Shown one piece after another: positions 1 through 40,060 of a stretch of 40,060 nucleotides of DNA. Below the pieces are notes generated by a model. It did no database searches and was not told the origin of the DNA. It was given only the letters and a program-made list of their open reading frames with translations. Positions within the stretch are counted from its first letter, which is position 1, and every line of letters starts with the position of its first letter. Both the position numbers and the translations under genes were made by a program. Origin of the DNA: Escherichia phage IMM-002; sequence record NC_048071.1. The stretch is one strand, 5' to 3'.

Positions 1-189
1 TCTCACAGTTCAAGAACCTCAAGTCTCCCCATAGGGTCACTCTCAGTCCGACTCAAGGCCCTACCCATAGACCTTCGGTCTAAACCTCAAGTCATTGACC
101 CGAAGTCGCCCCGAAGTCTGGACTGATAGTGCCTATATCTTGTGGTTGGGACGATTGGTCGGGACTATATGTAGTGCCTCTGAGTCTCT
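1..189. repeat. Left direct terminal repeat (DTR), identical to 39872..40060
   Basis: First 189 nt match the last 189 nt of the window base for base (aligned by eye); T7-like genomes carry 160-230 bp DTRs. Confidence 0.9.
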
Positions 190-886: not shown

Positions 887-1339
887 ATGATTTACACTAA
901 CGAACCAGCCAACGTCTTCTATGTGCTCGTGTCTGCCGCTCGTGCTAACCTGTCTGACACGGTGAACATGGGCCGTCAGTTAGGCCTTAAGGCGCTGCTG
1001 CAAGCCGGACCAGAATACTACGGCGTGCTCGAATGCACCGGGCTTACTGGGTGCTACCGCGAGGAAGGGCAGGAAGTCGCCACTGAAGAGAGGACCTACC
1101 GTGTGCGCTGCGAGTCAAAGGCTCAAGCTATCAACGTTGCACGACTGGCCTGCAATGACTTTGAGCAAGACTGCGTGATGGTCTACAAGTCTCAGACTCA
1201 CACGGCTGGACTGATGTTCTGCAAGGGCTGGGACGGCTACAAGACCACAAGTCTGAACGGGTCATTCCAGCAAGTCGATGAACCAAAGGGCGAATGCTTC
1301 ACGAAAGACGCTGAAGGTCGCTTCTGGGAGGTGGTGTAA
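887..1339 (+). CDS. 0.3: S-adenosylmethionine-degrading enzyme (T3 gp0.3 SAMase-like anti-restriction protein)
   Basis: 150 aa, first gene after the early promoters, AAAGGA RBS; N-terminus MIYTNEPANVFYVLVSA and motifs TGLTGCYRE, VRCESKAQAINVARLACN, VYKSQTHTAGL match my recollection of T3 SAMase; not acidic like T7 Ocr. Confidence 0.65.
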   Translation: MIYTNEPANVFYVLVSAARANLSDTVNMGRQLGLKALLQAGPEYYGVLECTGLTGCYREEGQEVATEERTYRVRCESKAQAINVARLACNDFEQDCVMVYKSQTHTAGLMFCKGWDGYKTTSLNGSFQQVDEPKGECFTKDAEGRFWEVV

Positions 1340-3398: not shown

Positions 3399-3421
3399 AC
3401 TAAACTATCACTAAAGGACTC
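3399..3421 (+). promoter_or_regulatory. Phage-type promoter variant (TAAACTATCACTAAAGGAC) upstream of the RNAP gene
   Basis: Matches the phage promoter core except A at -2; predicted +1 G at 3416. Confidence 0.5.
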
Positions 3422-3496: not shown

Positions 3497-6178
3497 ATGA
3501 GCGTCATCTCAATTGACAAGCACGACTTCTCTGATGTGTCGAATGCAATCGAACCATTCAACGTGCTGGCTGACCACTACGGTCAGGACCTAGCAGTAAA
3601 ACAGCTTCAGCTTGAGCATGAGGCGTACACTGAAGGCGAGCGACGTTTCATCAAGAACCTTGAGCGCCAAGCTGAGCGCGGGGAGCTGGCAGACAATCAG
3701 GTCGCCAAGCCACTGATGCAAACTCTGGTCCCGACCATCGCCAAGGCTGTTCGTGAGTGGCACGAAGGCCCGGACGGTAAGTCCTCGACCTCTCGCCCAA
3801 GCGTAGCGTTTACCATGCTGAGCACTGACGAGAAGGCTGTCAAAGACCGCTCTCTGCGAATCTCTGCTGAGTCTGCTGCGGTCATCATACTGAAAGTCAT
3901 CCTCAGCAAGCTGGTCAAGCCTGAGGGAATCCCGATAACGCCGATGGCCTCCGCGATTGGTCGCACACTTGAAGATGAAATCCGCTTCGGTCGCATCCGT
4001 GAGCAGGAGCAGGAGCACTTCAAGAAGACCATAGCTGAGAATCTGAAGAAACGTGCAGGAGCAAGCTACAAGAAAGCCTACATGCAAGCGGTCGAAGCCT
4101 CCATGCTGGAGCAAGGGCAACTGGCTGACGCTTGGGGGACTTGGAGTCCGACCGAGGCGGTACACGTAGGCATCAAGATGCTGGAGCTGGTCATCCAGTC
4201 CTCGCAACTGGTCGAACTGAAGCGCTACGGTGCGGGTAACGCTGCGGCAGACGTCGAGATGGTCCACCTGTCAGACTTCTGGGTCAAGAAGATGTCGCAA
4301 CGTGGCTTCTCACTGGCTGGCATCGCTCCGGTCTACCAACCTTGCGTCGTTCCACCTAAGCCGTGGACCGGGGTCGTGGGTGGTGGGTACTGGGCTAAGG
4401 GCCGAAGACCTCTCCCGCTGATTCGCTTAGGGTCCAAGGCTGCGGTCCAGCGCTACGAAGACGTGTACATGCCTGAAGTCTACGAGGCAGTGAATATCAT
4501 CCAGCAGACACCTTGGAAGGTGAACAAGAAGGTGCTGGACGTGGTGAACATGGTCGAGAAGCTGAACAACACGCCTATCGCTGACATCCCTCAGATGGAA
4601 CCGATGAAGCCTGAGGACTATGCAGGTGAGACCGAGGAAGAACTCAAAGCGTGGAAGAAAGCCGCTGCTGGTATCTATCGACGCGAGAAGGCCCGACAGT
4701 CCCGCCGTTTGTCCCTGAGCTTCATCGTCGGACAGGCGAACAAGTTCTCTCAGTTCAAGGCCATCTGGTTCCCATACAACATGGACTGGCGCGGTCGAGT
4801 CTATGCGGTCCCGATGTTCAACCCTCAGGGTAACGACATGCAGAAGGGCCTGCTGACTCTGGCAGTAGGCAAGCCAATCGGTGCGGACGGCTTCAAGTGG
4901 CTGAAGGTCCACGGTGCAAACTGCGCTGGTGTCGATAAAGTCACCTTCGAGGAGCGCATCAAGTGGGTCGAAGACAACCACGACAACATCCTCGCGGCTG
5001 CTAAGAGTCCGATGGATAGCATTGACTGGTGGGGTCAGTTAGACTCTCCGTTCTGCTTCCTCGCGTTCTGCTTCGAGTATGCTGGAGTCATGCACCACGG
5101 GCTGAGCTACTCCTGCTCACTGCCTATCGCGTTCGATGGGTCCTGCTCTGGGATTCAGCACTTCAGCGCGATGCTTCGTGACCACGTTGGTGGACATGCG
5201 GTCAACCTGACGCCAAGCGGGAAGGTCCAAGACATCTACCGCATTGTGTCAGACCGGGTGGAAGAACAGCTTAAGGAGCTGCTGGTCAACGGAAGTGACA
5301 ACGAGGTGAAGACCTTCGAGGACAAGAAGACAGGCGAGATTACTGAACGTCTGGTCCTTGGAACTCGCGAGCTGGCCCGTCAGTGGCTGACCTACGGGAT
5401 GTCACGCTCGGTCACTAAACGCTCGGTCATGACTCTGGCCTATGGGTCGAAGGAATACGGGTTCGCGGACCAAGTGTTTGAGGACACCGTGATGCCAGCG
5501 ATTGACAGCGGCAAGGGCGCGATGTTCACGGACCCAAGCCAAGCGTCACGCTTCATGGCTAAGATGATTTGGGATGCGGTAAGCGTGACCGTAGTTGCTG
5601 CGGTAGACGCGATGAAGTGGCTGCAAGGCGCTGCTAAACTGCTGGCTGCTGAGGTCAAGGACAAGAAGACAAAAGAGGTCCTTAAGCCTTGCCTCCCGGT
5701 TCACTGGGTAACGCCTGATGGCTTCCCGGTCTGGCAGGAATACCGAAAGAAGGACACCACCCGTCTGAACCTCCTGTTCCTTGGGTCGTTCAACCTGCAA
5801 CCGACAGTCAACAAAGGGTCTAAGAAAGAGCTGGACAAGCACAAGCAGGAGTCTGGTATCAGCCCTAACTTTGTACACTCACAGGACGGCAGTCACCTGA
5901 GGAAGACTGTGGTCCACACCCACCGCAAGTATGGCGTGATGTCCTTCGCAGTGATTCACGATAGCTTCGGGACCATCCCGGCTGACGCTGAGTTCCTGTT
6001 CAAGGGTGTCCGTGAGACGATGGTTGAGACCTACCGCGACAACGATGTGCTGCAAGACTTCTACGAGCAGTTCGCAGACCAGCTTCATGAGAGCCAGCGC
6101 GACAAGTTGCCCGAGCTGCCGAAGCGCGGTAAACTGAACATCGAAGACATTCTGTTATCTGACTTTGCATTCGCCTAA
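3497..6178 (+). CDS. 1: Single-subunit DNA-directed RNA polymerase (T7 gene 1 type)
   Basis: 893 aa from ATG 3497 (AAGGA RBS; track ORF opens at 3452); collinear with T7 RNAP incl. PWTGxxGGGYWA, AIWFPYNMDWRGRVYA, FCFLAFCFEYAGV, SGIQHFSAMLRD, HDSFGT and C-terminal SDFAFA. Confidence 0.97.
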   Translation: MSVISIDKHDFSDVSNAIEPFNVLADHYGQDLAVKQLQLEHEAYTEGERRFIKNLERQAERGELADNQVAKPLMQTLVPTIAKAVREWHEGPDGKSSTSRPSVAFTMLSTDEKAVKDRSLRISAESAAVIILKVILSKLVKPEGIPITPMASAIGRTLEDEIRFGRIREQEQEHFKKTIAENLKKRAGASYKKAYMQAVEASMLEQGQLADAWGTWSPTEAVHVGIKMLELVIQSSQLVELKRYGAGNAAADVEMVHLSDFWVKKMSQRGFSLAGIAPVYQPCVVPPKPWTGVVGGGYWAKGRRPLPLIRLGSKAAVQRYEDVYMPEVYEAVNIIQQTPWKVNKKVLDVVNMVEKLNNTPIADIPQMEPMKPEDYAGETEEELKAWKKAAAGIYRREKARQSRRLSLSFIVGQANKFSQFKAIWFPYNMDWRGRVYAVPMFNPQGNDMQKGLLTLAVGKPIGADGFKWLKVHGANCAGVDKVTFEERIKWVEDNHDNILAAAKSPMDSIDWWGQLDSPFCFLAFCFEYAGVMHHGLSYSCSLPIAFDGSCSGIQHFSAMLRDHVGGHAVNLTPSGKVQDIYRIVSDRVEEQLKELLVNGSDNEVKTFEDKKTGEITERLVLGTRELARQWLTYGMSRSVTKRSVMTLAYGSKEYGFADQVFEDTVMPAIDSGKGAMFTDPSQASRFMAKMIWDAVSVTVVAAVDAMKWLQGAAKLLAAEVKDKKTKEVLKPCLPVHWVTPDGFPVWQEYRKKDTTRLNLLFLGSFNLQPTVNKGSKKELDKHKQESGISPNFVHSQDGSHLRKTVVHTHRKYGVMSFAVIHDSFGTIPADAEFLFKGVRETMVETYRDNDVLQDFYEQFADQLHESQRDKLPELPKRGKLNIEDILLSDFAFA

Positions 6179-6471: not shown

Positions 6472-6929
6472 TGTTCAACCGTAAACTGAAGGCACGTATC
6501 GCAGCACTTGAAGCAACCATACAGCGTCAGGACCACAACCTTGAGCTGGCTAATCGAGAGCAAGCACGGCTGAGGGCCAAACTACAAAAAGCTGAGACCA
6601 AGCGTGAAGTCGAGCCTTTACGTGTGAAGCGCATGGTCGGCCTGAAGTTCAAGGCGCTGTTCAACGGTATCTACCAGCCGACTGAGTTCAAGACCGGGCC
6701 GGGACCATGTGGAAAGACAGTAACGCACTTCACCACGAGCCGAGACGAGCGGACGCTGACCATCCACCAGCACCATACGGACGAGTCCAGCAAGAGCTTT
6801 GAGTATCGGCTGAGCGACATCGACGGTCGCATCCAGTATGACTACGAGCTGGTGCAGGTTTACGGTGAGGAGGCAGAGCGGGAACGTATGGTCCAAGCCC
6901 TCCGCAACAGACCGCGCTTCATAGCCTAA
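6472..6929 (+). CDS. Hypothetical protein with N-terminal coiled-coil
   Basis: ATG 6472 preferred (GTG 6402 in track overlaps the microprotein); KLKARIAALEATIQRQDHNLELANREQARLRAKLQKAE heptad-like region. Confidence 0.5.
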
Positions 6930-6947
6930 ACTATCACTATAGGATTA
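6925..6947 (+). promoter_or_regulatory. Phage RNAP promoter (phi1.1-equivalent)
   Basis: CTAAACTATCACTATAGGATT, +1 about 6942. Confidence 0.8.
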
Positions 6948-8618: not shown

Positions 8619-8641
8619 ACTTAACTATCACTGTAGGACCA
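8619..8641 (+). promoter_or_regulatory. Phage RNAP promoter
   Basis: TTAACTATCACTGTAGGACC, +1 about 8636. Confidence 0.75.
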
Positions 8642-9560: not shown

Positions 9561-9711
9561 GAAGAAGTATATCGTGGAACTTGAAGGGCGCGTTCAGTCC
9601 TTTGACGTCCCGGTCTACGCTAAGTCTCTGGACGAGGCGACCCTGAAGGCTCAGGAATATGAAGATGCTGGTTTCGTGGTAGGCCGCATCCGACCTGAGC
9701 TGCACGACTAA
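9541..9711 (+). CDS. 2: Gp2-like inhibitor of host RNA polymerase
   Basis: 56 aa (below track cut-off); [32 protein letters not shown] matches T7 Gp2 [33 protein letters not shown]. Confidence 0.75.
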
Positions 9712-9729
9712 ACTATCACTTTAGGAACA
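9707..9729 (+). promoter_or_regulatory. Phage RNAP promoter (phi2.5-equivalent)
   Basis: CTAAACTATCACTTTAGGAAC, +1 about 9724. Confidence 0.75.
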
Positions 9730-10457: not shown

Positions 10458-10910
10458 GTGGCTGCATGGACACCAAAACGGGGGCACTCTGTGGGTGCCT
10501 ACCGCTCTGGACTTGAGGCCAAGAACCAGCAGTGGCTGGAACAGAACGGCGTCAAAGCGGAGTACGAAAGCCATTATATCAACTATGTGATTCCGGCTTC
10601 CGACCACAAGTATACACCAGACTTCATCCTTCCGAATGGCATCATCGTCGAGACCAAAGGTATCTTCGACAGTGAGGACCGCAAGAAGCATATGCTGGTG
10701 CGCGAGCAGCACCCTGAGCTGGACATCCGGTTCGTGTTCTCGTCCTCCCGCTCCAAGCTGTACAAAGGGTCGCCGACCACGTATGGCGCATGGTGCGAAA
10801 AGAACGGCTTTAAGTTTGCCGACAAGTTTATCCCGGTTGAGTGGCTGAAAGAGGCGACTGTACGTCTGCCTTCCGGTATACTCATCCCGAAGAAAGGAGC
10901 TAAGAAATGA
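10458..10910 (+). CDS. 3: Endonuclease I (Holliday-junction resolvase)
   Basis: 150 aa, GTG start; YRSGLE, YTPDFILPNGIIVETKG, DRKKHMLVREQHPELDIRFVFSSSRSKLYKGSPTTYG, KFADK collinear with T7 gp3. Confidence 0.95.
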   Translation: MAAWTPKRGHSVGAYRSGLEAKNQQWLEQNGVKAEYESHYINYVIPASDHKYTPDFILPNGIIVETKGIFDSEDRKKHMLVREQHPELDIRFVFSSSRSKLYKGSPTTYGAWCEKNGFKFADKFIPVEWLKEATVRLPSGILIPKKGAKK

Positions 10911-11818: not shown

Positions 11819-12031
11819 ATGATTAAGTTTATCGAATTTCTGGGTCGTCTGGTTGTGCGTGGTTATTCTCGTGCTGCGAGTGTGGAACGAAAAGTCGCAT
11901 CTGCTGCGGCTAAAGGTGCGGAAGCGGCTGCTGCGGAAGCGGATAGTCTGCGCATCAAGTCTCTGGACGCTGGCCTCCGTGCGCGTGGTCTGGACAAGAA
12001 GGCCGAGCAACTGAAAGGCTTCTTCAGCTAA
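11819..12031 (+). CDS. Hypothetical Ala-rich protein
   Basis: 70-aa ORF with AAGGAG RBS. Confidence 0.5.
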   Translation: MIKFIEFLGRLVVRGYSRAASVERKVASAAAKGAEAAAAEADSLRIKSLDAGLRARGLDKKAEQLKGFFS

Positions 12032-12049
12032 ACTATCACCTTAGGGATG
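12027..12049 (+). promoter_or_regulatory. Phage RNAP promoter
   Basis: TAAACTATCACCTTAGGGATG, +1 about 12044. Confidence 0.7.
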
Positions 12050-13854: not shown

Positions 13855-14019
13855 GTGTTTAAGAAACTTAAAGCCCGATACCACACGTTCATGTACAAGT
13901 GGTGGAACGAGGAGGCCAACTGTCTGTCCCGAATCCTTGGAGACCAGCGGTTTGACTCTAAGGCGTGGAAGCGAGCGAACCAGAAGTTCATGTATCACTT
14001 CCTGCGTATCGACTACTAA
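13855..14019 (+). CDS. Hypothetical small protein (gene 4.x position)
   Basis: GTG 13855 with GGAGGA 9 nt upstream (track ORF opens at GTG 13819); 54 aa. Confidence 0.35.
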   Translation: MFKKLKARYHTFMYKWWNEEANCLSRILGDQRFDSKAWKRANQKFMYHFLRIDY

Positions 14020-14037
14020 GCTATCACTGTAGGATAG
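14015..14037 (+). promoter_or_regulatory. Phage RNAP promoter (phi4.7-equivalent)
   Basis: CTAAGCTATCACTGTAGGATAG, +1 about 14032. Confidence 0.7.
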
Positions 14038-17024: not shown

Positions 17025-17883
17025 CAAGAAGATTGCTCTGGTGCTGGATGGTGACTTTCTTGTCTTCTCCTCTATGGCTGCGGCTGAAGACGAGACTGAC
17101 TGGGGCGACGACATCTGGACGCTAATCTGCGACCACGAGAAAGCTAAGCGCATCCTGATGAACACTATCAGTGAAATCGTTAAGAAGCGTAAGGCTTGGA
17201 AGGACGCTAAGATTGTGATGTGCTTCACCGATGATGTGAACTGGCGCAAGTCAATCCTGCCGACCTATAAGGCCAACCGTAAGGGTTCCCGTAAGCCTGT
17301 AGGCTACAAGAAGTTTGTGGCTGACATCATGGCGGACCCTCAGTTCAACAGCTTCCTGCGTTCCACGCTGGAGGGTGATGATTGTATGGGTATCATCGGG
17401 ACACGACCTCAGATTGTAGGTTGCGACCATGCGGTGCTGGTGTCCTGCGATAAGGACTTCAAGACCATCCCGAACTGTGAGTTCTACTGGCTGACCACTG
17501 GTGAAATCCTGAGTCACACGACTGCTGAGGCAGACTACTGGCATATGGAGCAGACCATCAAGGGTGACATGACGGATGGCTATGGTGGTATTCCGGGCTA
17601 CGGAGAGGACACGACCCGTGCGTTCCTTGACGAACCGTACTACTTCGTGCAGGAGACCCGCGAGCTGAAGACTGGCAAGAACAAAGGCCAGCTCAAGGTC
17701 GAGTGGAAGAAATACCCTAAGCGTGAAGACCAAACGTTGTGGGACTGCATGGTGACTCTGGCTGCTAAAGCCGGGATGACCGAGGAGGAACTTCTGGTCC
17801 AAGCTCAGGTCGCTCGCATCTGCCGAGCCTCCGACTACGACCCTAAGTCCAAGGAGGTCATCTTGTGGACACCTTACATCTAA
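17017..17883 (+). CDS. 6: 5'-3' exonuclease
   Basis: 288 aa; LVLDGDFLVF, CFTDDVNWRKSILPTYKANRK, KPVGY, CDKDFKTIPNC, TIKGDMTDGYGGIPG, LWDCM...AKAGMTEEE match T7 gp6. Confidence 0.95.
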   Translation: MSDKKIALVLDGDFLVFSSMAAAEDETDWGDDIWTLICDHEKAKRILMNTISEIVKKRKAWKDAKIVMCFTDDVNWRKSILPTYKANRKGSRKPVGYKKFVADIMADPQFNSFLRSTLEGDDCMGIIGTRPQIVGCDHAVLVSCDKDFKTIPNCEFYWLTTGEILSHTTAEADYWHMEQTIKGDMTDGYGGIPGYGEDTTRAFLDEPYYFVQETRELKTGKNKGQLKVEWKKYPKREDQTLWDCMVTLAAKAGMTEEELLVQAQVARICRASDYDPKSKEVILWTPYI

Positions 17884-18006: not shown

Positions 18007-18029
18007 ACTAAACTATCACTATAGGGACT
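18007..18029 (+). promoter_or_regulatory. Phage RNAP promoter (phi6.5-equivalent)
   Basis: CTAAACTATCACTATAGGGAC, +1 about 18024. Confidence 0.85.
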
Positions 18030-18091
18030 TTAGGACCTAAGTTATGACTATAAGATAGACTTAAGTTAATACTTTAAGAGGAGACTTTAAG

Positions 18092-19262: not shown

Positions 19263-20831
19263 ATGGCTGAACGTCAAGGCTTCGCTGCTGAAGGAGCCAA
19301 AGCGGTTTATGACCGATTAAAGAACGGTCGCCAGCCGTATGAGACACGAGCTCAGAACTGTGCGGCTGTCACCATCCCGTCCCTGTTCCCGAAAGAGTCC
19401 GACAACTCCTCAACAGAGTACACGACTCCGTGGCAAGCTGTAGGCGCTCGCTGTCTGAATAACCTAGCGGCTAAGCTAATGCTTGCCCTGTTCCCTCAGG
19501 CACCGTGGATGAGACTCACCGTCTCTGAGTATGAGGCCAAAACCTTGAGTCAAGACACTGAGGCTGCTGCCCGTGTTGACGAGGGGCTGGCTATGGTCGA
19601 GCGTGTGCTGATGGCCTATATGGAGACCAATAGTTTCCGTGTGCCACTGTTCGAGGCCCTGAAGCAACTTATCGTCTCAGGTAACTGTCTGCTCTACATC
19701 CCGCCTCCAGAACAGGGTCAGTATAGCCCAATGCGAATGTACCGTCTGGTCTCCTATGTGGTCCAGCGCGATGCGTTCGGTAACGTGCTACAGATTGTCA
19801 CCCTCGACAGGATTGCGTTTAGTGCTCTGCCGGAAGACGTTCAGTCTCAGCTCAACGCTGATGACTATGAGCCGGACACCGAGTTGGACGTCTACACGCA
19901 CATCTACCGGGAAGGCGATGAGTACCTGCGTTATGAGGAAGTGGAAGGCGTAGAGGTTAACGGGACCGATGGTTCCTATCCACTTGATGCCTGCCCGTAC
20001 ATCCCGGTACGCATGGTCAGACTGGATGGTGAAGACTATGGTCGTTCCTACGCTGAAGAGTATCTTGGGGACCTGAACTCTCTGGAGACAATTACCGAGG
20101 CTATCACCAAGATGGCTAAGGTCGCCGCTAAGGTGGTGGGTCTGGTCAATCCGAACGGTATCACCCAGCCTCGTCGCCTGAACAAGGCAGCTACTGGTGA
20201 GTTTGTGGCCGGACGCATTGAGGACATCAACTTCCTGCAATTGACGAAAGGTCAGGACTTTACGATTGCCAAGTCGGTGGCTGACGCTATCGAGCAACGT
20301 TTAGGCTGGGCCTTCCTGCTTAACTCTGCTGTCCAGCGTAATGCTGAGCGAGTGACTGCTGAAGAGATTCGTTATGTTGCTGGTGAGCTTGAGGCGACTC
20401 TAGGCGGTGTGTACTCCGTGCAGTCTCAGGAGATGCAGCTACCTCTGGTCCGTGTGCTACTGAACCAGCTTCAGTCCGCTGGCATGATTCCTGACCTTCC
20501 GAAAGAAGCGGTAGAGCCTACGGTCTCCACTGGTCTGGAAGCTCTGGGTCGTGGTCAGGATTTGGAGAAGCTGACTCAGGCGGTGAACATGATGACTGGA
20601 CTTCAGCCTCTGGCTCAGGACCCGGACATCAACTTGCCGACCCTTAAGCTGCGACTCCTGAACGCTCTGGGTATCGACACCGCTGGTCTGCTCCTGACGC
20701 AAGACGAGAAGCTGAAACGCATGGCTGAGCAGTCGTCTCAACAGGCAGTCGTCCAAGGTGCTGGTGCTGCTGGTGCTAACATGGGTGCTGCGGTCGGTCA
20801 GGGTGCTGGTGAGGACATGGCTCAGGCTTAA
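19263..20831 (+). CDS. 8: Head-to-tail connector (portal) protein
   Basis: 522 aa, size and position of T7 gp8, first gene of the structural block. Confidence 0.9.
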   Translation: MAERQGFAAEGAKAVYDRLKNGRQPYETRAQNCAAVTIPSLFPKESDNSSTEYTTPWQAVGARCLNNLAAKLMLALFPQAPWMRLTVSEYEAKTLSQDTEAAARVDEGLAMVERVLMAYMETNSFRVPLFEALKQLIVSGNCLLYIPPPEQGQYSPMRMYRLVSYVVQRDAFGNVLQIVTLDRIAFSALPEDVQSQLNADDYEPDTELDVYTHIYREGDEYLRYEEVEGVEVNGTDGSYPLDACPYIPVRMVRLDGEDYGRSYAEEYLGDLNSLETITEAITKMAKVAAKVVGLVNPNGITQPRRLNKAATGEFVAGRIEDINFLQLTKGQDFTIAKSVADAIEQRLGWAFLLNSAVQRNAERVTAEEIRYVAGELEATLGGVYSVQSQEMQLPLVRVLLNQLQSAGMIPDLPKEAVEPTVSTGLEALGRGQDLEKLTQAVNMMTGLQPLAQDPDINLPTLKLRLLNALGIDTAGLLLTQDEKLKRMAEQSSQQAVVQGAGAAGANMGAAVGQGAGEDMAQA

Positions 20832-20848
20832 CTATCACTATAGGAACA
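20826..20848 (+). promoter_or_regulatory. Phage RNAP promoter (phi9-equivalent)
   Basis: GCTTAACTATCACTATAGGAAC, +1 about 20843; followed by hairpin AACAGG...CCTGTT. Confidence 0.8.
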
Positions 20849-21781: not shown

Positions 21782-21804
21782 ACTAAACTATCACTATAGG
21801 GAGA
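21782..21804 (+). promoter_or_regulatory. Phage RNAP promoter (phi10-equivalent), best match to consensus
   Basis: CTAAACTATCACTATAGGGAGA, +1 about 21799. Confidence 0.9.
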
Positions 21805-21907
21805 CCAAGAGTAGAGACTCAAGGTTTCCCTGTAACTTCAGTCCATACGGATTGGGCATAACGAAGTCACTAAACTTTATCTTTCATTCGAATAGGAGAA
21901 TTATCAT

Positions 21908-23220: not shown

Positions 23221-23225
23221 TTGAA

Positions 23226-23265
23226 ACCCCTTGGGTGCCTTCGGGTGCTTGAGGGGTTTTTCGTT
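23226..23265 (+). terminator. Rho-independent terminator (Tphi-equivalent)
   Basis: AACCCCTTGGGTGCCTTCGGGTGCTTGAGGGGTTTTTCG closely resembles T7 Tphi (AACCCCTTGGGGCCTCTAAACGGGTCTTGAGGGGTTTTTTG). Confidence 0.85.
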
Positions 23266-26237: not shown

Positions 26238-26260
26238 CCTTAACTATCACTATAGGGACT
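26238..26260 (+). promoter_or_regulatory. Phage RNAP promoter (phi13-equivalent)
   Basis: CCTTAACTATCACTATAGGGAC, +1 about 26255; leader shares TACTTTAAGAGGAGACTTTA with the 18007 promoter leader. Confidence 0.85.
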
Positions 26261-32600: not shown

Positions 32601-33532
32601 ACATCGTGGAACATAGTCTGACTGGCAGTAAGCGTAAGTTCGATGACCGTTGGTTGAAGACTGCTGGTATCTCCGCTGACCAGTGGAAGGGCATTAAGTC
32701 CCTCATCCGTGAGTCGGTGACTCGTGGTCCAGACGGGAAGTACACCATCAAGGACAAGAAGGCGTTCAGTCAGGACCCAAGGGCTATGGACCTCTGGCGT
32801 ATGGGTGACACCATCGCTGATGAGACCCTGCTTCGTCCGCACAAGCTGAGCAACATGGACGCCAAGGCTTATGGTCCGCTGGCGAAGACTGTCTTGCAGT
32901 TTAAGAACTTCGTCATCAAGTCCATCAACGGTCGAACCATGCGTACCTTCTACAACGCCACCAAGAACAACCGAGCTATGGATGCTGCACTATCAACGGT
33001 TATGTCTATGGGTCTGGCTGGGATGTACTACATGGCTCAGGCGCACATCAAGGCTTACGCTATGCAGGACGGTCGTGACCGTGAGTACCTGAAGCAAGCC
33101 TTGAACCCGACGATGATTGGTTATGCTGCTCTATCCCGTAGCTCCCACTTGGGTGGACCTCTTGGGGTCGCCAACATTCTGGGTGGTATCGCTGGGTATG
33201 AGGACACTAAGTTACTCCGCTCGTCTATCCTTCCGCGCTCACCTACCGAGAAGCCTGAACGTGCCATTACCTATGGTGCTGCGAAGAGTGACCCGGTGAT
33301 GAATGTGGTCGGCAACTTCCTTGAGCAGGTCCCGGCTTTCGGTTATGCTGCTAACGTTGGCGCTTCGGCTTACAACTTGGCTGGCTACCTGAAGTCCGAC
33401 ACCCGTGTGAACGAACGAGACTACATGACCGGGATGTATAACACCTTCCGTGAGCTGGTCCCGAACGACCCTATCACCCAGAAGCTGCTGTTAGGCACCT
33501 TTGAGGAGCAAGGTATTCACATCAAGAACTAA
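29642..33532 (+). CDS. 16: Internal virion protein C/D-like (ejectosome core), with non-T7 N-terminal domain
   Basis: 1296 aa; from about residue 200 collinear with T7 gp16 (TWFGF..AAEAE, TRWN, GAGVDPL, RLEARETARN, RSPTGMQSGASGK, MENPAMFG, KGTYVPHVY, SRPEVKARVDE, DKAYGISH, NFLEARNLFDSD, YNRRVNGDIAIMAG, LRPHK, NNRAMDAALS); first about 130 aa unrelated to the T7 SLT domain. Confidence 0.93.
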   Translation: MATRGIRNNNIGNIRVSKDQWEGATGDDGSFVTFDTPDSGVRALAKNLMSYGRQGYDSIEKIITRWAPPSENDTQSYIQSVASATGIPATQSLDLTDPDVLASLSEAIGYHETGSRYDKSVYQTGVGRALGNGITPKSPPVSANVFDALTEGLKAKPKVALGENLPGVTGLNIEGQEPEAPNESFGEMFYKSTGETLDQRADRSTWFGFGGAAEAEVNNSMVGVAIRAGQTEDSLDVIGDVFNPTRWNNHKWSREELDQIRNAGVLPQYYGVITGGSPQNLTELINLALENQKLDAEKAKAGTGAQLAAGVIGAGVDPLTYVPIAGQVGKGGKLINKMFTVAAQSGALAGASELARTSVAGGDAHVAEAIMGGALFGGGMTAIGDAIGKALGKSTNEFAGPATRLEARETARNVDGQDLSRLPIREGEETFSHQGVKFADVPNEPGSVRLEDGSILIGENPLNPKTRQVFDEVIEPERAAAGVNLGGLTEIGLKLLRSENPEIRGLAADLVRSPTGMQSGASGKIGTTASDVFERLRAVDHRFYNDIDDAVTQALKDPYFQTNFNRDTGAFRQDIYQRVALAIEDGSGNLKAELTPGELKVYGLLKNQFDAKREMMENPAMFGRVDAQSIFPGSRFKGTYVPHVYSNQMKQLFINELGSPEALQEAIKKSWLTSYASRPEVKARVDEALLEANPNLKPEELAAAVDKYANDKAYGISHTDLFERSSVMEENINGLVGLENNNFLEARNLFDSDMSIILPNGQPFNVNSLREWDMDKIVPAYNRRVNGDIAIMAGTGKTTKEMKDTVETMMNRAGDDGKLKGEVATLRDTLKILTGRARRDGADDAAFSTVMRTMTDLSFFAKNAYMGVQNLTEIGGMLARGNVRAMLHGIPMFRDLAFRNKKMGASEIKDLHNVVFGKELDDSIRPSKQDVIDRLRAYSDLSKPVATALGSAKYYTGELAVRSPFTKVLNGTTNYLLDAGRQGFLSDIVEHSLTGSKRKFDDRWLKTAGISADQWKGIKSLIRESVTRGPDGKYTIKDKKAFSQDPRAMDLWRMGDTIADETLLRPHKLSNMDAKAYGPLAKTVLQFKNFVIKSINGRTMRTFYNATKNNRAMDAALSTVMSMGLAGMYYMAQAHIKAYAMQDGRDREYLKQALNPTMIGYAALSRSSHLGGPLGVANILGGIAGYEDTKLLRSSILPRSPTEKPERAITYGAAKSDPVMNVVGNFLEQVPAFGYAANVGASAYNLAGYLKSDTRVNERDYMTGMYNTFRELVPNDPITQKLLLGTFEEQGIHIKN

Positions 33533-33550
33533 ACTATCACTATAGGAACG
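33528..33550 (+). promoter_or_regulatory. Phage RNAP promoter (phi17-equivalent)
   Basis: AACTAAACTATCACTATAGGAACG, +1 about 33545; followed by GGAG-gcttcggt-CTCC hairpin. Confidence 0.85.
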
Positions 33551-33591: not shown

Positions 33592-36390
33592 ATGGCTAAA
33601 ACAACTATCACTCAGTTCCCTGCTGGTCAATCGCAGTATCGAATTGAGTTCGACTATCTGGCTCGACCTTTCGTCGTCGTAACGTTGGTGAACTCCGCCG
33701 ACCAGACGCAGAACAGGGTGCTGAGGGCTGGAGCTGACTATAGGTTCCTGAACCCCACCTTAATCGAGGTTATGATTCCACAGACAGGTTTCGATACCTT
33801 GCAAATTCACCGTCAGACGGACACCGAGCTGATTGTTGGTTTCAGGGACGGCTCAGTTCTTACAGCTAAGGACTTGACAAATGCAGAGCTTCAGGCCATT
33901 CACATCTCGGAAGAGGGTAGGGACCAGACTGTAGACTTAGCGAAGGAATACGCTGACGCTGCCGCCAAAGCGCGAAACGATGCCGAAGACGCCCGTGATA
34001 GCATCGAGCAGGTCATGAAGTCTGGACTGTACGGATACACTCTGGTTGAGGACTTCCAAAAAGGTGCCACATTGTCTCACCCGGCTGAGGCACTTCGCTG
34101 GACACTGCCTGATGGGACGGGAGAATACTACCGCTGGGACGGTGTGTTTCCAAAGGTGGTTCCAGCAGGGTCAACGCCCACATCAGCTGGAGGGGTCGGA
34201 GTTGGTGCTTGGGTATCTATTGGTGACGCATCTCTTCGAGGAAACCTAGCTAACCCAGCCTACGGTGACGGCCTTGTTGCTTCGCAGCTTCCTAACTCCC
34301 CGGTGGCTAGAACAGTCCATGATAAAATGCTAGAAGCTGTGAGCATTGCGGACTATATGGTTGGCGGTGATGTGGCTGGTGCGATAATTGGTGCCCTGTC
34401 CTCCACTGCTGGTCGGGTTAGTGTTCCTGCCGGGAATCACATAGCCACACCTTCCGCAGCGCAAGTGGCTGGCGTACTCTCTGCCCTAAGTAGGCTGAAC
34501 ATTAACGGGTCCTTAACGATTCGTCTCCCTAAGGGAAGGGTTAATCTATCCTCTCCGGTATTGGTGGAGCTGGACGGAGGGAATAACCTAAGCATTGAAG
34601 GACAGCCTAACGTCCCAGTAACCATTACAGGACAAGCGTCTGTCTCTGGGTCTGCTGGAAACTACCAAGTAACCCTTAACGTGTCCTCGACAGCCGGGGT
34701 CTCTGTGGGTGACTTCCTGCATACCAACCAAGCTACAGGCACAGGAGCATGCGACCTTCATCGCGGTGTTTGGGAGATTACCGCTGTTGGGGCAGGGTCT
34801 CTGACTGTCAGGAATACGTGCCAGCTCTCATCCTTCCCGGCTAACACCATAACCTCCAGCTCTAGCCGAGTGCTGACCTCAGTGCTCATGTTTGACCGCT
34901 GCGATGGGTTCATAGTGCCGTCCTCTGAAGTTGGTAACATGAGTAACTTTGTTATCGCAGGTAACTCAGACTCATACTGGAGGGCCTCGGCTGTGGGGAC
35001 TACCGAGCTGGGGACTCATGGTCTGGCTGTAGGCTCAAACACTGTAGCCGTGAACGGTAAGTCAGATAACGTTAACCCTCAAGGTAAGACGGGCGGTAGC
35101 GTGACTTTCGGTCAATACATGGGCGTCTCCGGGTTTGACCAGCAGGGCATTGTTACCGAGCTTGGTGGTAGCTTCTGGGGCGACTTTACTTGCTGCTGTA
35201 ACAACAAGAGACGCGGGTTCTACTCGTCAACTGCATCTGGCATTCGTGCTAAGCAGATTACGGCCAATGGTAACTATCTTGATGGGGTTATTGCGGATAT
35301 TGGCGGAGACATCTACTCGAGCTCTTCTAGCTGCGCCGCAGGTAACGGGTCCTCAGGCATAAGCGCTGCCCATAACGGTTCTGTGATATGGGACGCAGGC
35401 AAGGCCAGCTACAATAAGCTGAATGGTGCCAATGGGGTGGCGGGGGGCTTCCTACAGATGACTGGCTCAACGATGCAGGGTAACTTGGCCACTGGCGCTA
35501 ACCTAGCCTATGGTGCCATCCTCTACTGCGACAACTCCCAGATATCTTTAAACGGAACCTATGGCATTAACTGTCAGCTGGGCTCGGTTGTTCGTGGTCC
35601 TAACTGCACGTATATAGGGAATAACAACCAAGGCATTAGAGGCTCTTACAATGCGACCGTAACCTTTACAGGCTCTACATTCTCTGGTAACTCTGGCGGG
35701 GACTTCCTCTTTACCGCTATGTCTCTTGGCATCTTCGGGAACACTAATTACGGTGGGGATATTGTTGCCACGGACATTAAGTTAGTGAACCAGTCAACTG
35801 GCAAAGGTGTCCGTCTTACTGGGACCTCTGGTGGGGATAACATTGTTATGTCCTATGATGTCACGGGTAATGGGTCCTTTGTCGAGGGTTATAACTTCAG
35901 GTCTGGTGACGTTGGTATCTACCCATCGGATGATGCGGTTCGCAATATTGGACGACCAGCAAACAGGTTTAACATCGGCTTCTTTGCGGGAGGAACACAG
36001 TCTACGTCAGACGCTAGGCTTAAGGACCCTATCAGGGACTTTTCTGAGGCAGAACTCAAGGCGGCTGTCGCCTGTAGTAAATCCTTAGGATTCTGGACTT
36101 GGCTGGACGACGACAGCAAGCGCCTTCATGCAGGGACTACTGTTCAAAGAGTTCTAGAAATCCTAGAGGATAACGGGCTGGATTGGCGTGAGTATGGGTT
36201 CATCGGGTTTGACTCGTGGGAAGATGAGTATAAACCTGTCGTTGCGGAGATTGATGGTATGGAATACGAGACTGGCGAGGTTGTCAAGGTGGTTGAGGCA
36301 GGGTCACTGTGGCAGCTGCGTGACCAAGAGTTTGACAGATTCCTAATCCGTGGACTCTCCGCCCGACTCTCGGCTATCGAGAAGGACTGA
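33592..36390 (+). CDS. 17: Tail fibre / tailspike: T7 gp17-like N-terminal adaptor, Gly/Asn/Ser-rich beta-helix-like central domain, C-terminal intramolecular chaperone (peptidase S74-type) domain
   Basis: 932 aa; N-terminal about 150 aa resemble T7 gp17 ([33 protein letters not shown]); C-terminal [14 protein letters not shown]... fits the SDxRxK autoproteolytic chaperone motif of endosialidase-type fibres; codon usage distinct from rest of genome. Confidence 0.9.
36007..36387 (+). other. Predicted intramolecular chaperone / autoproteolysis domain within the tail fibre (cleavage expected at Ser806)
   Basis: SDARLKDPI motif beginning at codon 806 of the fibre ORF. Confidence 0.6.
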
Positions 36391-39305: not shown

Positions 39306-39328
39306 ACTTAACTATCACTATAGGGAAG
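39306..39328 (+). promoter_or_regulatory. Phage RNAP promoter (phiOR-equivalent)
   Basis: GGACTTAACTATCACTATAGGGAAG, +1 about 39323. Confidence 0.8.
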
Positions 39329-39871: not shown

Positions 39872-40060
39872 TCTCACAGTTCAAGAACCTCAAGTCTCCC
39901 CATAGGGTCACTCTCAGTCCGACTCAAGGCCCTACCCATAGACCTTCGGTCTAAACCTCAAGTCATTGACCCGAAGTCGCCCCGAAGTCTGGACTGATAG
40001 TGCCTATATCTTGTGGTTGGGACGATTGGTCGGGACTATATGTAGTGCCTCTGAGTCTCT
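39872..40060. repeat. Right direct terminal repeat (DTR)
   Basis: Identical to 1..189; window ends inside or at the end of the repeat. Confidence 0.9.

What the first reader, a model, noticed from the sequence alone, without database searches (positions are those of the whole stretch)
21782..21804. Distinct promoter specificity: 12 promoters with core TAAACTATCACTATAGGGAGA
The promoters share the T7-like -7 to +6 region but carry A-C-T-A at -12 to -9 where T7 has C-G-A-C and T3 has A-C-C-C. In the RNAP, the region aligning to the T7 specificity loop reads PTVNKGSKKELDKHKQ versus T7 PTINTNKDSEIDAHKQ, so the residue aligned to T7 N748 is changed. The polymerase and promoter pair probably has its own specificity.
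Basis: partly seen in the sequence, partly recalled or inferred. Interest (0 to 1): 0.4.

Follow-up and report, generated by a model that had tools for sequence, protein, structure and literature searches.

The report
K1F-type phage promoters and polymerase
The window is a complete T7-like phage genome of the K1F group (genus Kayfunavirus), and its 12 repeated promoters and matching RNA polymerase are the K1F promoter/polymerase pair, which is already described and already used as an orthogonal expression tool.

Summary
The repeats are real. Twelve sites, all on the + strand, match AACTATCACTATAGG within 2 mismatches, where chance gives about 0.75. They lie where T7 has its promoters. Positions -12 to -9 read ACTA, against CGAC in T7 and ACCC in T3.

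The true consensus is CTWAACTATCACTATAGG.

PTVNKGSKKELDKHKQ aligns to T7 residues 759-774. T7 N748 lies upstream of that stretch and is conserved here as N. The base-contact residue that changes is R756 to N, together with Q754S, I761V and M750L.

The specificity is not new. The RNAP is 94% identical to phage K1F gp1, and K1F carries the same promoter core at syntenic sites. The specificity loop is identical in four deposited phages. About 220 phage records share this RNAP C-terminus at 90% identity or more.

Published work covers the pair. T7 RNAP with 754S/756N/761V recognises -12..-8 ACTAT (Temme 2012; Zhu 2025). Native K1F RNAP with PK1F (cctaaactatcactatagg) is an established orthogonal system. 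The same consensus was published for another Kayfunavirus in 2026.

Verdict: a distinct specificity is supported, but it is already known. Interest is low.

The parts
3399..3421 (+). Phage promoter (-17..+6, +1 at 3416), ACTAAACTATCACTAAAGGACTC, 81 nt upstream of the RNAP start codon
   Evidence: One mismatch to the core (-2 A). Conserved 75-81 nt upstream of gene 1 in all 7 K1F-group genomes examined.
3497..6178 (+). Gene 1: single-subunit T7-family RNA polymerase, 893 aa
   Evidence: Pfam RNA_pol at 8e-106 and RPOL_N. 94% identical to K1F gp1. 64% identical to T7 and T3 RNAP. Full-length match to the T7 RNAP structures 1ARO/1CEZ.
3758..3811 (+). Segment WHEGPDGKSSTSRPSVAF. It aligns to the T7 N-terminal AT-rich recognition loop region (T7 88-103), carries a 2-residue insertion and has lost most basic residues
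   Evidence: Its role in reading -17..-13 is inferred, not tested.
5741..5848 (+). Specificity loop region YRKKDTTRLNLLFLGSFNLQPTVNKGSKKELDKHKQ (T7 739-774). Contact positions: R756 (T7 R746), N758 (T7 N748), N766 (T7 R756), Q768 (T7 Q758)
   Evidence: The loop is identical in Pisces, phi1_146013, EcL30g and BHUENT8.
6925..6947 (+). Phage promoter, +1 at 6942, CCTAAACTATCACTATAGGATTA, ahead of the gene 1.2/1.3 (ligase) block
   Evidence: Exact core. The TAA stop of the upstream ORF sits at -15..-13.
8619..8641 (+). Phage promoter, +1 at 8636, ACTTAACTATCACTGTAGGACCA (gene 1.6 block)
   Evidence: One mismatch.
9707..9729 (+). Phage promoter, +1 at 9724, ACTAAACTATCACTTTAGGAACA, before gene 2.5 (ssDNA-binding protein)
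   Evidence: Syntenic with T7 phi2.5.
12027..12049 (+). Phage promoter, +1 at 12044, GCTAAACTATCACCTTAGGGATG, before gene 4 (primase/helicase)
   Evidence: Two mismatches. The same variant occurs in K1F at 10883.
14015..14037 (+). Phage promoter, +1 at 14032, ACTAAGCTATCACTGTAGGATAG, before gene 5 (DNA polymerase)
   Evidence: Two mismatches. This is the only site with G at -12.
18007..18029 (+). Phage promoter, +1 at 18024, ACTAAACTATCACTATAGGGACT, before gene 6.5
   Evidence: Exact core. Syntenic with T7 phi6.5.
20826..20848 (+). Phage promoter, +1 at 20843, GCTTAACTATCACTATAGGAACA, before gene 9 (scaffold)
   Evidence: Exact core. The gene 8 stop codon sits at -14..-12. Syntenic with T7 phi9.
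21782..21804 (+). Phage promoter, +1 at 21799, ACTAAACTATCACTATAGGGAGA, before gene 10 (major capsid). This is the site the finding points to
Evidence: The transcript begins with a 5' stem-loop. Syntenic with T7 phi10.
23223..23262 (+). Tphi-like terminator after gene 10: AAACCCCUUGGGUGCCUUCGGGUGCUUGAGGGGUUUUU
   Evidence: -26.3 kcal/mol, z -3.55. Same position as T7 Tphi and as the terminator annotated in Pisces.
26238..26260 (+). Phage promoter, +1 at 26255, CCTTAACTATCACTATAGGGACT, before gene 13
   Evidence: Exact core. Syntenic with T7 phi13.
33528..33550 (+). Phage promoter, +1 at 33545, ACTAAACTATCACTATAGGAACG, before gene 17 (tail spike)
   Evidence: Exact core. The gene 16 stop codon sits at -15..-13. 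Syntenic with T7 phi17.
39306..39328 (+). Phage promoter, +1 at 39323, ACTTAACTATCACTATAGGGAAG, near the right end (phiOR position)
   Evidence: Exact core. Syntenic with T7 phiOR.

Best explanation
The window is a complete Kayfunavirus (K1F-group, T7-like) phage genome.

Its gene 1 encodes a single-subunit RNA polymerase. That enzyme transcribes the middle and late genes from 12 same-strand promoters with consensus (a/c)CT(A/T)AACTATCACTATAGG(a/g)a, and transcription starts at the first G of GG.

Recognition works as in T7. The -8 to +2 part (TCACTATAGG) is shared with T7, together with the conserved contact residues R746 and Q758. The specificity hairpin reads -12 to -9 in the major groove.

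The switch from T7's CGAC to ACTA goes with R756N, accompanied by Q754S, I761V and M750L. It does not involve any change at N748.

The promoters with an exact core are those of the late genes (6.5, 9, 10, 13, 17, right end) plus one early-middle promoter. The promoters of the DNA-metabolism genes carry 1-2 mismatches at -12 and -4 to -2. This parallels the strong class III and weaker class II promoters of T7.

Shown here: the motif, its positions, the synteny, the loop residues and the identity with K1F. Shown in the literature for K1F: retargeting and orthogonality. Inferred: that this particular enzyme fires from these 12 sites, and the atomic contacts.
For: - 12 sites against 0.75 expected by chance, all on the + strand. 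Invariant -16C/-15T lie outside the search pattern.
- The sites sit in front of genes 1, 1.2, 1.6, 2.5, 4, 5, 6.5, 9, 10, 13, 17 and at the right end, 33-182 nt before Shine-Dalgarno-led ORFs. Seven of these (2.5, 6.5, 9, 10, 13, 17 and the right end) sit at the positions of T7's annotated promoters of the same names, and a Tphi-like terminator follows gene 10.
- The RNAP is in Pfam RNA_pol/RPOL_N. It is 94% identical to K1F gp1. K1F carries the same core at syntenic sites.
- T7-numbered alignment: R746, N748, S754, N756, Q758, V761.
- Zhu 2025 Table 2: T7 RNAP with 632S/754S/756N/761V has the cognate promoter -12..-8 ACTAT. Their coupling analysis links 756 to -10/-9, 748 to -11/-10, 758 to -8 and 746 to -7.
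- Temme 2012: T7(K1F) was active on its promoter and orthogonal to the T7, T3 and N4 variants.
- Native K1F RNAP was used with PK1F gacatggctcaagcctaaactatcactatagg.
- The consensus CTWAACTATCACTATAGG was published for Kayfunavirus phage Sparklingdew.
- Six other K1F-group genomes show the same consensus, with 11-13 sites each.
Against: - There is no transcription data for this genome. Start sites and relative strengths are inferred from homology.
- Zhu 2025 describes the loop-graft set as only modestly orthogonal, with an orthogonality score of 8 and appreciable non-cognate activity. Discrimination against T7 RNAP may therefore be incomplete, at least in the chimeric context.
- N748 is retained although -11 and -10 differ from T7, so the contact scheme at these two bases is not explained by simple residue substitution.
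- The published chimera lacks M750L and keeps T7's -17..-13 and N-terminal domain. It therefore does not test the native upstream element.
Confidence: 0.93

Rival explanations
1. One reading: the specificity change comes from a substitution at the residue aligned to T7 N748, located in the PTVNKGSKKELDKHKQ stretch.
For: The quoted stretch is present and differs from T7's PTINTNKDSEIDAHKQ at 8 of 16 positions. N748 is a true determinant in the T7/T3 pair, where T3 has D.
Against: In the alignment numbered on T7, position 748 is N in the window and in K1F. The quoted stretch is T7 759-774. The published K1F graft covers only Q744-I761 and changes 754, 756 and 761, yet it retargets T7 RNAP to ACTAT.
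Confidence: 0.02
2. A new specificity private to this phage: the window's loop variants relative to K1F (M750L and T-to-S at the hairpin tip) give it a promoter preference different from K1F's.
For: Two loop residues differ from K1F. Position 750 can matter: M750R rescued activity of a split K1F-loop fragment (PMC4299498).
Against: The promoter consensus is identical in genomes with L750/S (window, Pisces, phi1_146013, EcL30g, BHUENT8) and in those with M750/T or M (K1F, EPr2). The exact loop occurs in four deposited phages. The C-terminal 193 aa are 100% identical to phi1_146013.
Confidence: 0.03
3. The repeats are not promoters but another dispersed signal, such as RNA-processing sites, replication or packaging elements, or a mobile short repeat.
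For: There is no direct transcript evidence here. Six of the 12 sites overlap the stop codon of the upstream ORF.
Against: They contain the universal T7-group core TCACTATAGG. All lie on the coding strand, just upstream of gene blocks. Seven sit at the positions of T7's annotated promoters of the same names. The identical sequence drives expression with K1F RNAP in vivo.
Confidence: 0.01

Closest known systems
Phage K1F (Kayfunavirus K1F, NC_007456) gene 1 RNAP and K1F promoters. Used as the native K1F RNAP/PK1F expression system and as the T7(K1F) loop-graft polymerase.
   Same: - The RNAP is 94% identical to K1F gp1 over all 893 aa.
- The contact residues are the same: R/N/N/Q at T7 746/748/756/758, with S754 and V761.
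- The promoter core AACTATCACTATAGG is the same, with invariant C-16/T-15.
- Gene order, the promoter positions found in both genomes and the promoter upstream of gene 1 are the same.
   Different: - M750L and T-to-S at the hairpin tip. Both variants also occur in Pisces, phi1_146013, EcL30g and BHUENT8.
- The window has a promoter before gene 5 (14032) with no K1F counterpart found at up to 4 mismatches.
- The gene 1 promoter has A at -2.
- The tail spike is a different protein: beta-helix plus Peptidase_S74 here, against the K1F endosialidase.
Escherichia phage Pisces (MK903277), the nearest deposited genome
   Same: 98.4% identity over the RNAP region. Identical specificity loop and 12 promoter sites. 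93.7-95% identity over 81-89% of the genome.
   Different: About 11-19% of the query did not align in each half of the genome. The Pisces record annotates no phage promoters.
T7 RNAP / T7 promoter TAATACGACTCACTATAGGGAGA
   Same: - Same enzyme family and fold.
- Same -8..+2 sequence, with R746, N748 and Q758 retained.
- Same promoter layout for genes 2.5, 6.5, 9, 10, 13, 17 and the right end, and the same Tphi terminator position.
   Different: - 64% identity.
- R756N, Q754S, I761V and M750L.
- Promoter -12..-9 is ACTA, not CGAC. Promoter -17..-14 is aCTa, not TAAT.
- The N-terminal loop is remodelled.
- T7 has no phage promoter before gene 1.
T3 RNAP / T3 promoter AATTAACCCTCACTAAAGGGAGA
   Same: -12 A and -11 C are shared. 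Same enzyme family.
   Different: T3 has D748 and R756, where the window has N748 and N756. -10/-9 are CC in T3 and TA here.

Membership tests
T7-family single-subunit RNA polymerase | RNA_pol (PF00940) catalytic domain plus the RPOL_N N-terminal domain, with full-length similarity to T7 RNAP | tested here: met
   354.9 and 54.6 bits, both above the cut-offs; 1ARO/1CEZ, residues 1-893 against 1-883
K1F-type (Kayfunavirus) RNAP/promoter specificity | RNAP closely related to K1F gp1 | tested here: met
   94% identity with no gaps. A clear gap separates the 90%-or-more clade (about 217 records) from the T7/T3/K11-like enzymes at 60-80%.
K1F-type (Kayfunavirus) RNAP/promoter specificity | Specificity-loop residues N748, S754, N756, Q758, V761 (T7 numbering), the set that defines the T7(K1F) graft | tested here: met
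   Zhu 2025 Table 2
K1F-type (Kayfunavirus) RNAP/promoter specificity | Promoter -12..-8 = ACTAT within the consensus CTWAACTATCACTATAGG | tested here: met
   11 of 12 sites read ACTAT and one reads GCTAT. 7 of 12 match the 18-mer exactly. The same consensus is published, and PK1F has the same sequence.
K1F-type (Kayfunavirus) RNAP/promoter specificity | Promoters at the same genomic positions as in K1F | tested here: met
   Ten of the 12 sites have a K1F counterpart in front of the same gene.
K1F-type (Kayfunavirus) RNAP/promoter specificity | The cognate enzyme transcribes from these promoters and discriminates against T7/T3 promoters | not testable with these tools
   Shown for K1F or K1F-loop enzymes in the literature, not for this genome.
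T7 promoter specificity | R756 with -12..-9 CGAC; T7-consensus promoters in the genome | tested here: not met
   N at 756. No site within 3 mismatches of the T7 consensus.
T3 promoter specificity | D748 with -12..-9 ACCC; T3-consensus promoters in the genome | tested here: not met
   N at 748. No site within 3 mismatches of the T3 consensus.

The most novel reading that the evidence does not exclude
Native K1F-group polymerases may use a bipartite specificity. Besides the hairpin reading -12..-9, an upstream element with invariant C-16/T-15 may be read by a remodelled N-terminal loop (GPDGKSSTSRPSV). That loop is 2 residues longer than T7's and largely non-basic, and T7 has A/A at -16/-15. The published loop grafts kept T7's N-terminal domain and T7's -17..-13, so they never tested this.

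Separately, a phage promoter 75-81 nt upstream of gene 1 is conserved in all 7 K1F-group genomes examined and absent from the T7 and T3 annotations. It would give the polymerase positive feedback on its own gene.
Probability: 0.3. Interest if true: 0.3.

Novelty: already known. Interest (0 to 1): 0.08.

Why it matters
It matters little as a discovery. The K1F promoter/polymerase pair has been in the literature since the K1F genome was sequenced. It was used to build orthogonal T7 variants in 2012, it is a named cluster in a 2025 covariation network, and it is a working expression and mutagenesis tool.

The useful outcome is a correction. The base-contact residue that changes is R756N, not N748. 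The promoter also differs from T7 at -17 to -14, not only at -12 to -9.

Two points are of modest practical interest. The native upstream element (C-16/T-15) and the remodelled N-terminal loop are untested candidates for making K1F-type pairs more orthogonal than the loop grafts. The gene 1 promoter suggests an autoregulatory wiring that T7 lacks.

Tried and rejected
- I searched the window for T7- and T3-consensus promoters at up to 3 mismatches and found none.
- I tried to read the K1F genome paper (Scholl and Merril 2005) by DOI and by a guessed PMC id. It is not held, so K1F was compared directly from its GenBank record instead.
- The Temme 2012 supplements are not held. The substitution list and cognate promoter were taken from Zhu 2025 Table 2 instead.
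- I tested whether the window's loop variants (L750, S at the tip) go with any promoter change across 7 genomes. They do not.
- An Rfam scan of the whole window found nothing at gathering score.
- I folded the RNA downstream of the gene 6.5 promoter to explain the degenerate second promoter-like copy. There is no significant structure (z -0.06).
- I considered the 4-mismatch promoter-like sequence in the terminal repeat as a phiOL analogue. I rejected it as a promoter because -11 to -5 are not conserved.
- I did not run structure prediction or large protein searches, because direct comparison with K1F and T7 settled the question.

Full report
**Observation**

Window 21782-21804 reads ACTAAACTATCACTATAGGGAGA. 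Aligned to the 23-bp T7 promoter, this is -17 to +6, with +1 at 21799.

- The 15-mer AACTATCACTATAGG (-13..+2) has 12 copies within 2 mismatches. All are on the + strand and 7 are exact. Dinucleotide-preserving shuffles give a mean of 0.75 and a maximum of 4.
- C at -16 and T at -15 were not part of the search pattern, yet both are invariant in 12 of 12 sites. The count of 12 is therefore right and far beyond chance.
- The stated core is over-specified. GGGAGA at +1..+6 occurs only at the gene 10 promoter. The consensus is (a/c)CT(A/T)AACTATCACTATAGG(a/g)a.

**What the window is**

- The window is a complete linear genome with 189-bp direct terminal repeats at 1-189 and 39872-40060.
- It belongs to the K1F group, genus Kayfunavirus.
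- The nearest record is Escherichia phage Pisces. Identity is 98.4% over the RNAP region and 93.7-95% over 81-89% of each half of the genome.
- Gene order follows T7.

**Promoter positions**

Start sites lie at 3416, 6942, 8636, 9724, 12044, 14032, 18024, 20843, 21799, 26255, 33545 and 39323.

- Each is 33-182 nt upstream of an ORF led by a Shine-Dalgarno sequence. In order these are gene 1, the 1.2/ligase block, 1.6, 2.5, 4, 5, 6.5, 9, 10, 13, 17 and the right end.
- T7's own annotated promoters phi2.5, phi6.5, phi9, phi10, phi13, phi17 and phiOR occupy the same relative places. T7's Tphi follows gene 10, as does a Tphi-like hairpin here at 23223-23262 (-26.3 kcal/mol, z -3.55).
- Exact cores belong to the six late promoters plus the one at 6942. 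The promoters of the replication genes carry 1-2 mismatches at -12 and -4 to -2. This mirrors the class III and class II distinction of T7 (the class assignment is established knowledge of T7; the pattern here is).

**The polymerase**

- ORF 3497-6178 encodes an 893-aa protein with Pfam RNA_pol and RPOL_N domains.
- It matches the T7 RNAP structures along its full length.
- It is 64% identical to T7 and T3 RNAP and 94% identical, without gaps, to K1F gp1.

I aligned the window, K1F, T7 and T3 enzymes and numbered the alignment on T7:

| T7 position | T7 | T3 | K1F | Window |
|---|---|---|---|---|
| 746 | R | R | R | R |
| 748 | N | D | N | N |
| 750 | M | I | M | L |
| 754 | Q | Q | S | S |
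| 756 | R | R | N | N |
| 758 | Q | Q | Q | Q |
| 761 | I | I | V | V |

- The T7 residues recovered at 746, 748, 756 and 758 are the four base-contact residues named for the T7-promoter complex in PMC11880802. The numbering is therefore sound.
It lies downstream of N748 and does not contain it.
- N748 is conserved. The statement that it is changed is wrong.

**How the specificity is most likely set**

- Zhu et al. 2025 derived couplings 746 to -7, 748 to -11/-10, 756 to -10/-9, and 757 and 758 to -8.
- The window keeps R746 with C-7 and Q758 with T-8, as T7 does. It changes 756 (R to N) along with -10 and -9 (AC to TA).
- -11 changes (G to C) without any change at 748.
- Table 2 of the same paper lists the Temme et al. 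K1F graft as T7 RNAP 632S/754S/756N/761V with cognate promoter ACTAT at -12..-8. Those are exactly the residues and bases found here.
- Temme et al. 2012 swapped Q744-I761 and -12..-7. They found 17-fold induction for T7(K1F) and orthogonality to the T7, T3 and N4 variants. Zhu et al. rate that set as only modestly orthogonal.
- Native K1F RNAP with its promoter is used as an orthogonal expression and mutagenesis system alongside MmP1 and VP4 (PMC12218169). The PK1F part listed there, gacatggctcaagcctaaactatcactatagg, contains the 18-mer found in the window's exact-core promoters.
- The atomic contacts of N756 and N748 with the new bases are inference.

**How common it is**

- K1F itself has the same core at 11 sites within 2 mismatches, at syntenic positions.
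- Six K1F-group genomes (K1F, Pisces, phi1_146013, EPr2, EcL30g, BHUENT8) have 11-13 sites each with the same consensus.
- Over 83 sites in 7 genomes (45 distinct sequences), -16C, -15T, -13A, -11C and -9 to -5 are invariant.
- The window's 33-residue loop is identical in four of these genomes. K1F and EPr2 differ at position 750 and at the hairpin tip, with no change in promoter consensus.
- A tblastn search with the C-terminal 193 aa finds 18 records at 99% identity or more and about 217 at 90% or more. Very few fall between 80 and 90%, and the T7/T3/K11-like enzymes follow at 60-80%.
- A 2026 description of Kayfunavirus phage Sparklingdew reports the consensus CTWAACTATCACTATAGG as its promoters (PMC13298934).

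**Comparison with T7 and T3**

- T7's 17 annotated promoters read TAATA at -17..-13 and CGAC at -12..-9.
- T3 promoters read ACCC at -12..-9.
- The K1F-type promoter also differs from T7 at -17 to -14, with C/T at -16/-15 where T7 has A/A.
- The N-terminal segment aligned to T7's AT-rich recognition loop is remodelled: WHEGPDGKSSTSRPSVAF against WFEEVKAKRGKRPTAF.
- No T7- or T3-consensus promoter exists in the window.

**Verdict**

- The repeats are real phage promoters.
- The polymerase/promoter pair does have a specificity distinct from T7 and T3.
The change is R756N with Q754S, I761V and M750L, not N748.
- The pair is the well-known K1F/Kayfunavirus specificity, so the finding is already known.
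- What remains untested, as far as I could find, is whether the invariant -16/-15 bases and the remodelled N-terminal loop add to specificity in the native enzyme, and what the conserved phage promoter in front of gene 1 does.

Noticed in passing
window 3399-3421 (+1 at 3416), upstream of gene 1 at 3497: A phage-type promoter sits 81 nt upstream of the RNAP gene itself. One is present 75-81 nt upstream of gene 1 in all 7 K1F-group genomes examined. The T7 and T3 records annotate only a host (E. coli C) promoter there. This implies positive autoregulation of the polymerase gene. The 5' UTR folds into a long hairpin (z -2.1).
   Followed up: partly
window 3758-3811 and promoter positions -17..-13: C-16 and T-15 are invariant in 45 of 45 distinct K1F-group promoter sequences, where T7 has A/A. 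The N-terminal loop aligned to T7's AT-rich recognition loop has a 2-residue insertion and few basic residues. This may be a second specificity element, and the published loop grafts do not test it.
   Followed up: partly
window 1-189 and 39872-40060: Perfect 189-bp direct terminal repeats, so the window is a complete linear phage genome. The repeat contains a weak promoter-like sequence (CCTCAAGTCTCCCCATAGGG, 4 mismatches to the core) that is also conserved in K1F's terminal repeat.
   Followed up: partly
window 18036-18058 (+1-equivalent at 18053): A degenerate second copy of the promoter motif (CCTAAGTTATGACTATAAGATAG, 4 mismatches, A at +1) lies 29 nt downstream of the gene 6.5 promoter. 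It is conserved in K1F at 17223. The region has no significant RNA structure (z -0.06).
   Followed up: partly
window promoters at 6942, 9724, 12044, 14032, 20843, 33545: In 6 of 12 promoters the TAA within CTAAAC/CTTAAC (-15..-13 or -14..-12) is the stop codon of the upstream ORF. These include gene 8 and gene 16, so the promoter and the gene end overlap.
   Followed up: yes
window 23223-23262: A Tphi-like terminator hairpin (AACCCCUUGGG...CUUGAGGGGUUUUU) follows gene 10 and closely resembles T7 Tphi in sequence. The gene 10 transcript starts with a 5' stem-loop, GGGAGACC...GGUUUCCC, at 21799-21830.
   Followed up: partly
window 33592-36390: The tail spike (932 aa) combines a T7 tail-fibre N-terminal domain, Tail_spike_N, a weak beta-helix match and a C-terminal Peptidase_S74 chaperone domain. 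It is the part of the genome least similar to Pisces and K1F and probably sets the host range.
   Followed up: partly
database hits (OR786095.1, PQ520054.1): Records named 'Staphylococcus phage MBBL139' and 'Enterococcus phage IME_EF3' are about 92% identical to this enterobacterial Kayfunavirus RNAP region. They are probably mislabelled or contaminated deposits.
   Followed up: no
window 887-1339: The first early gene encodes an S-adenosylmethionine lyase (T3-type anti-restriction) rather than the Ocr-like protein annotated in K1F and T7.
   Followed up: partly
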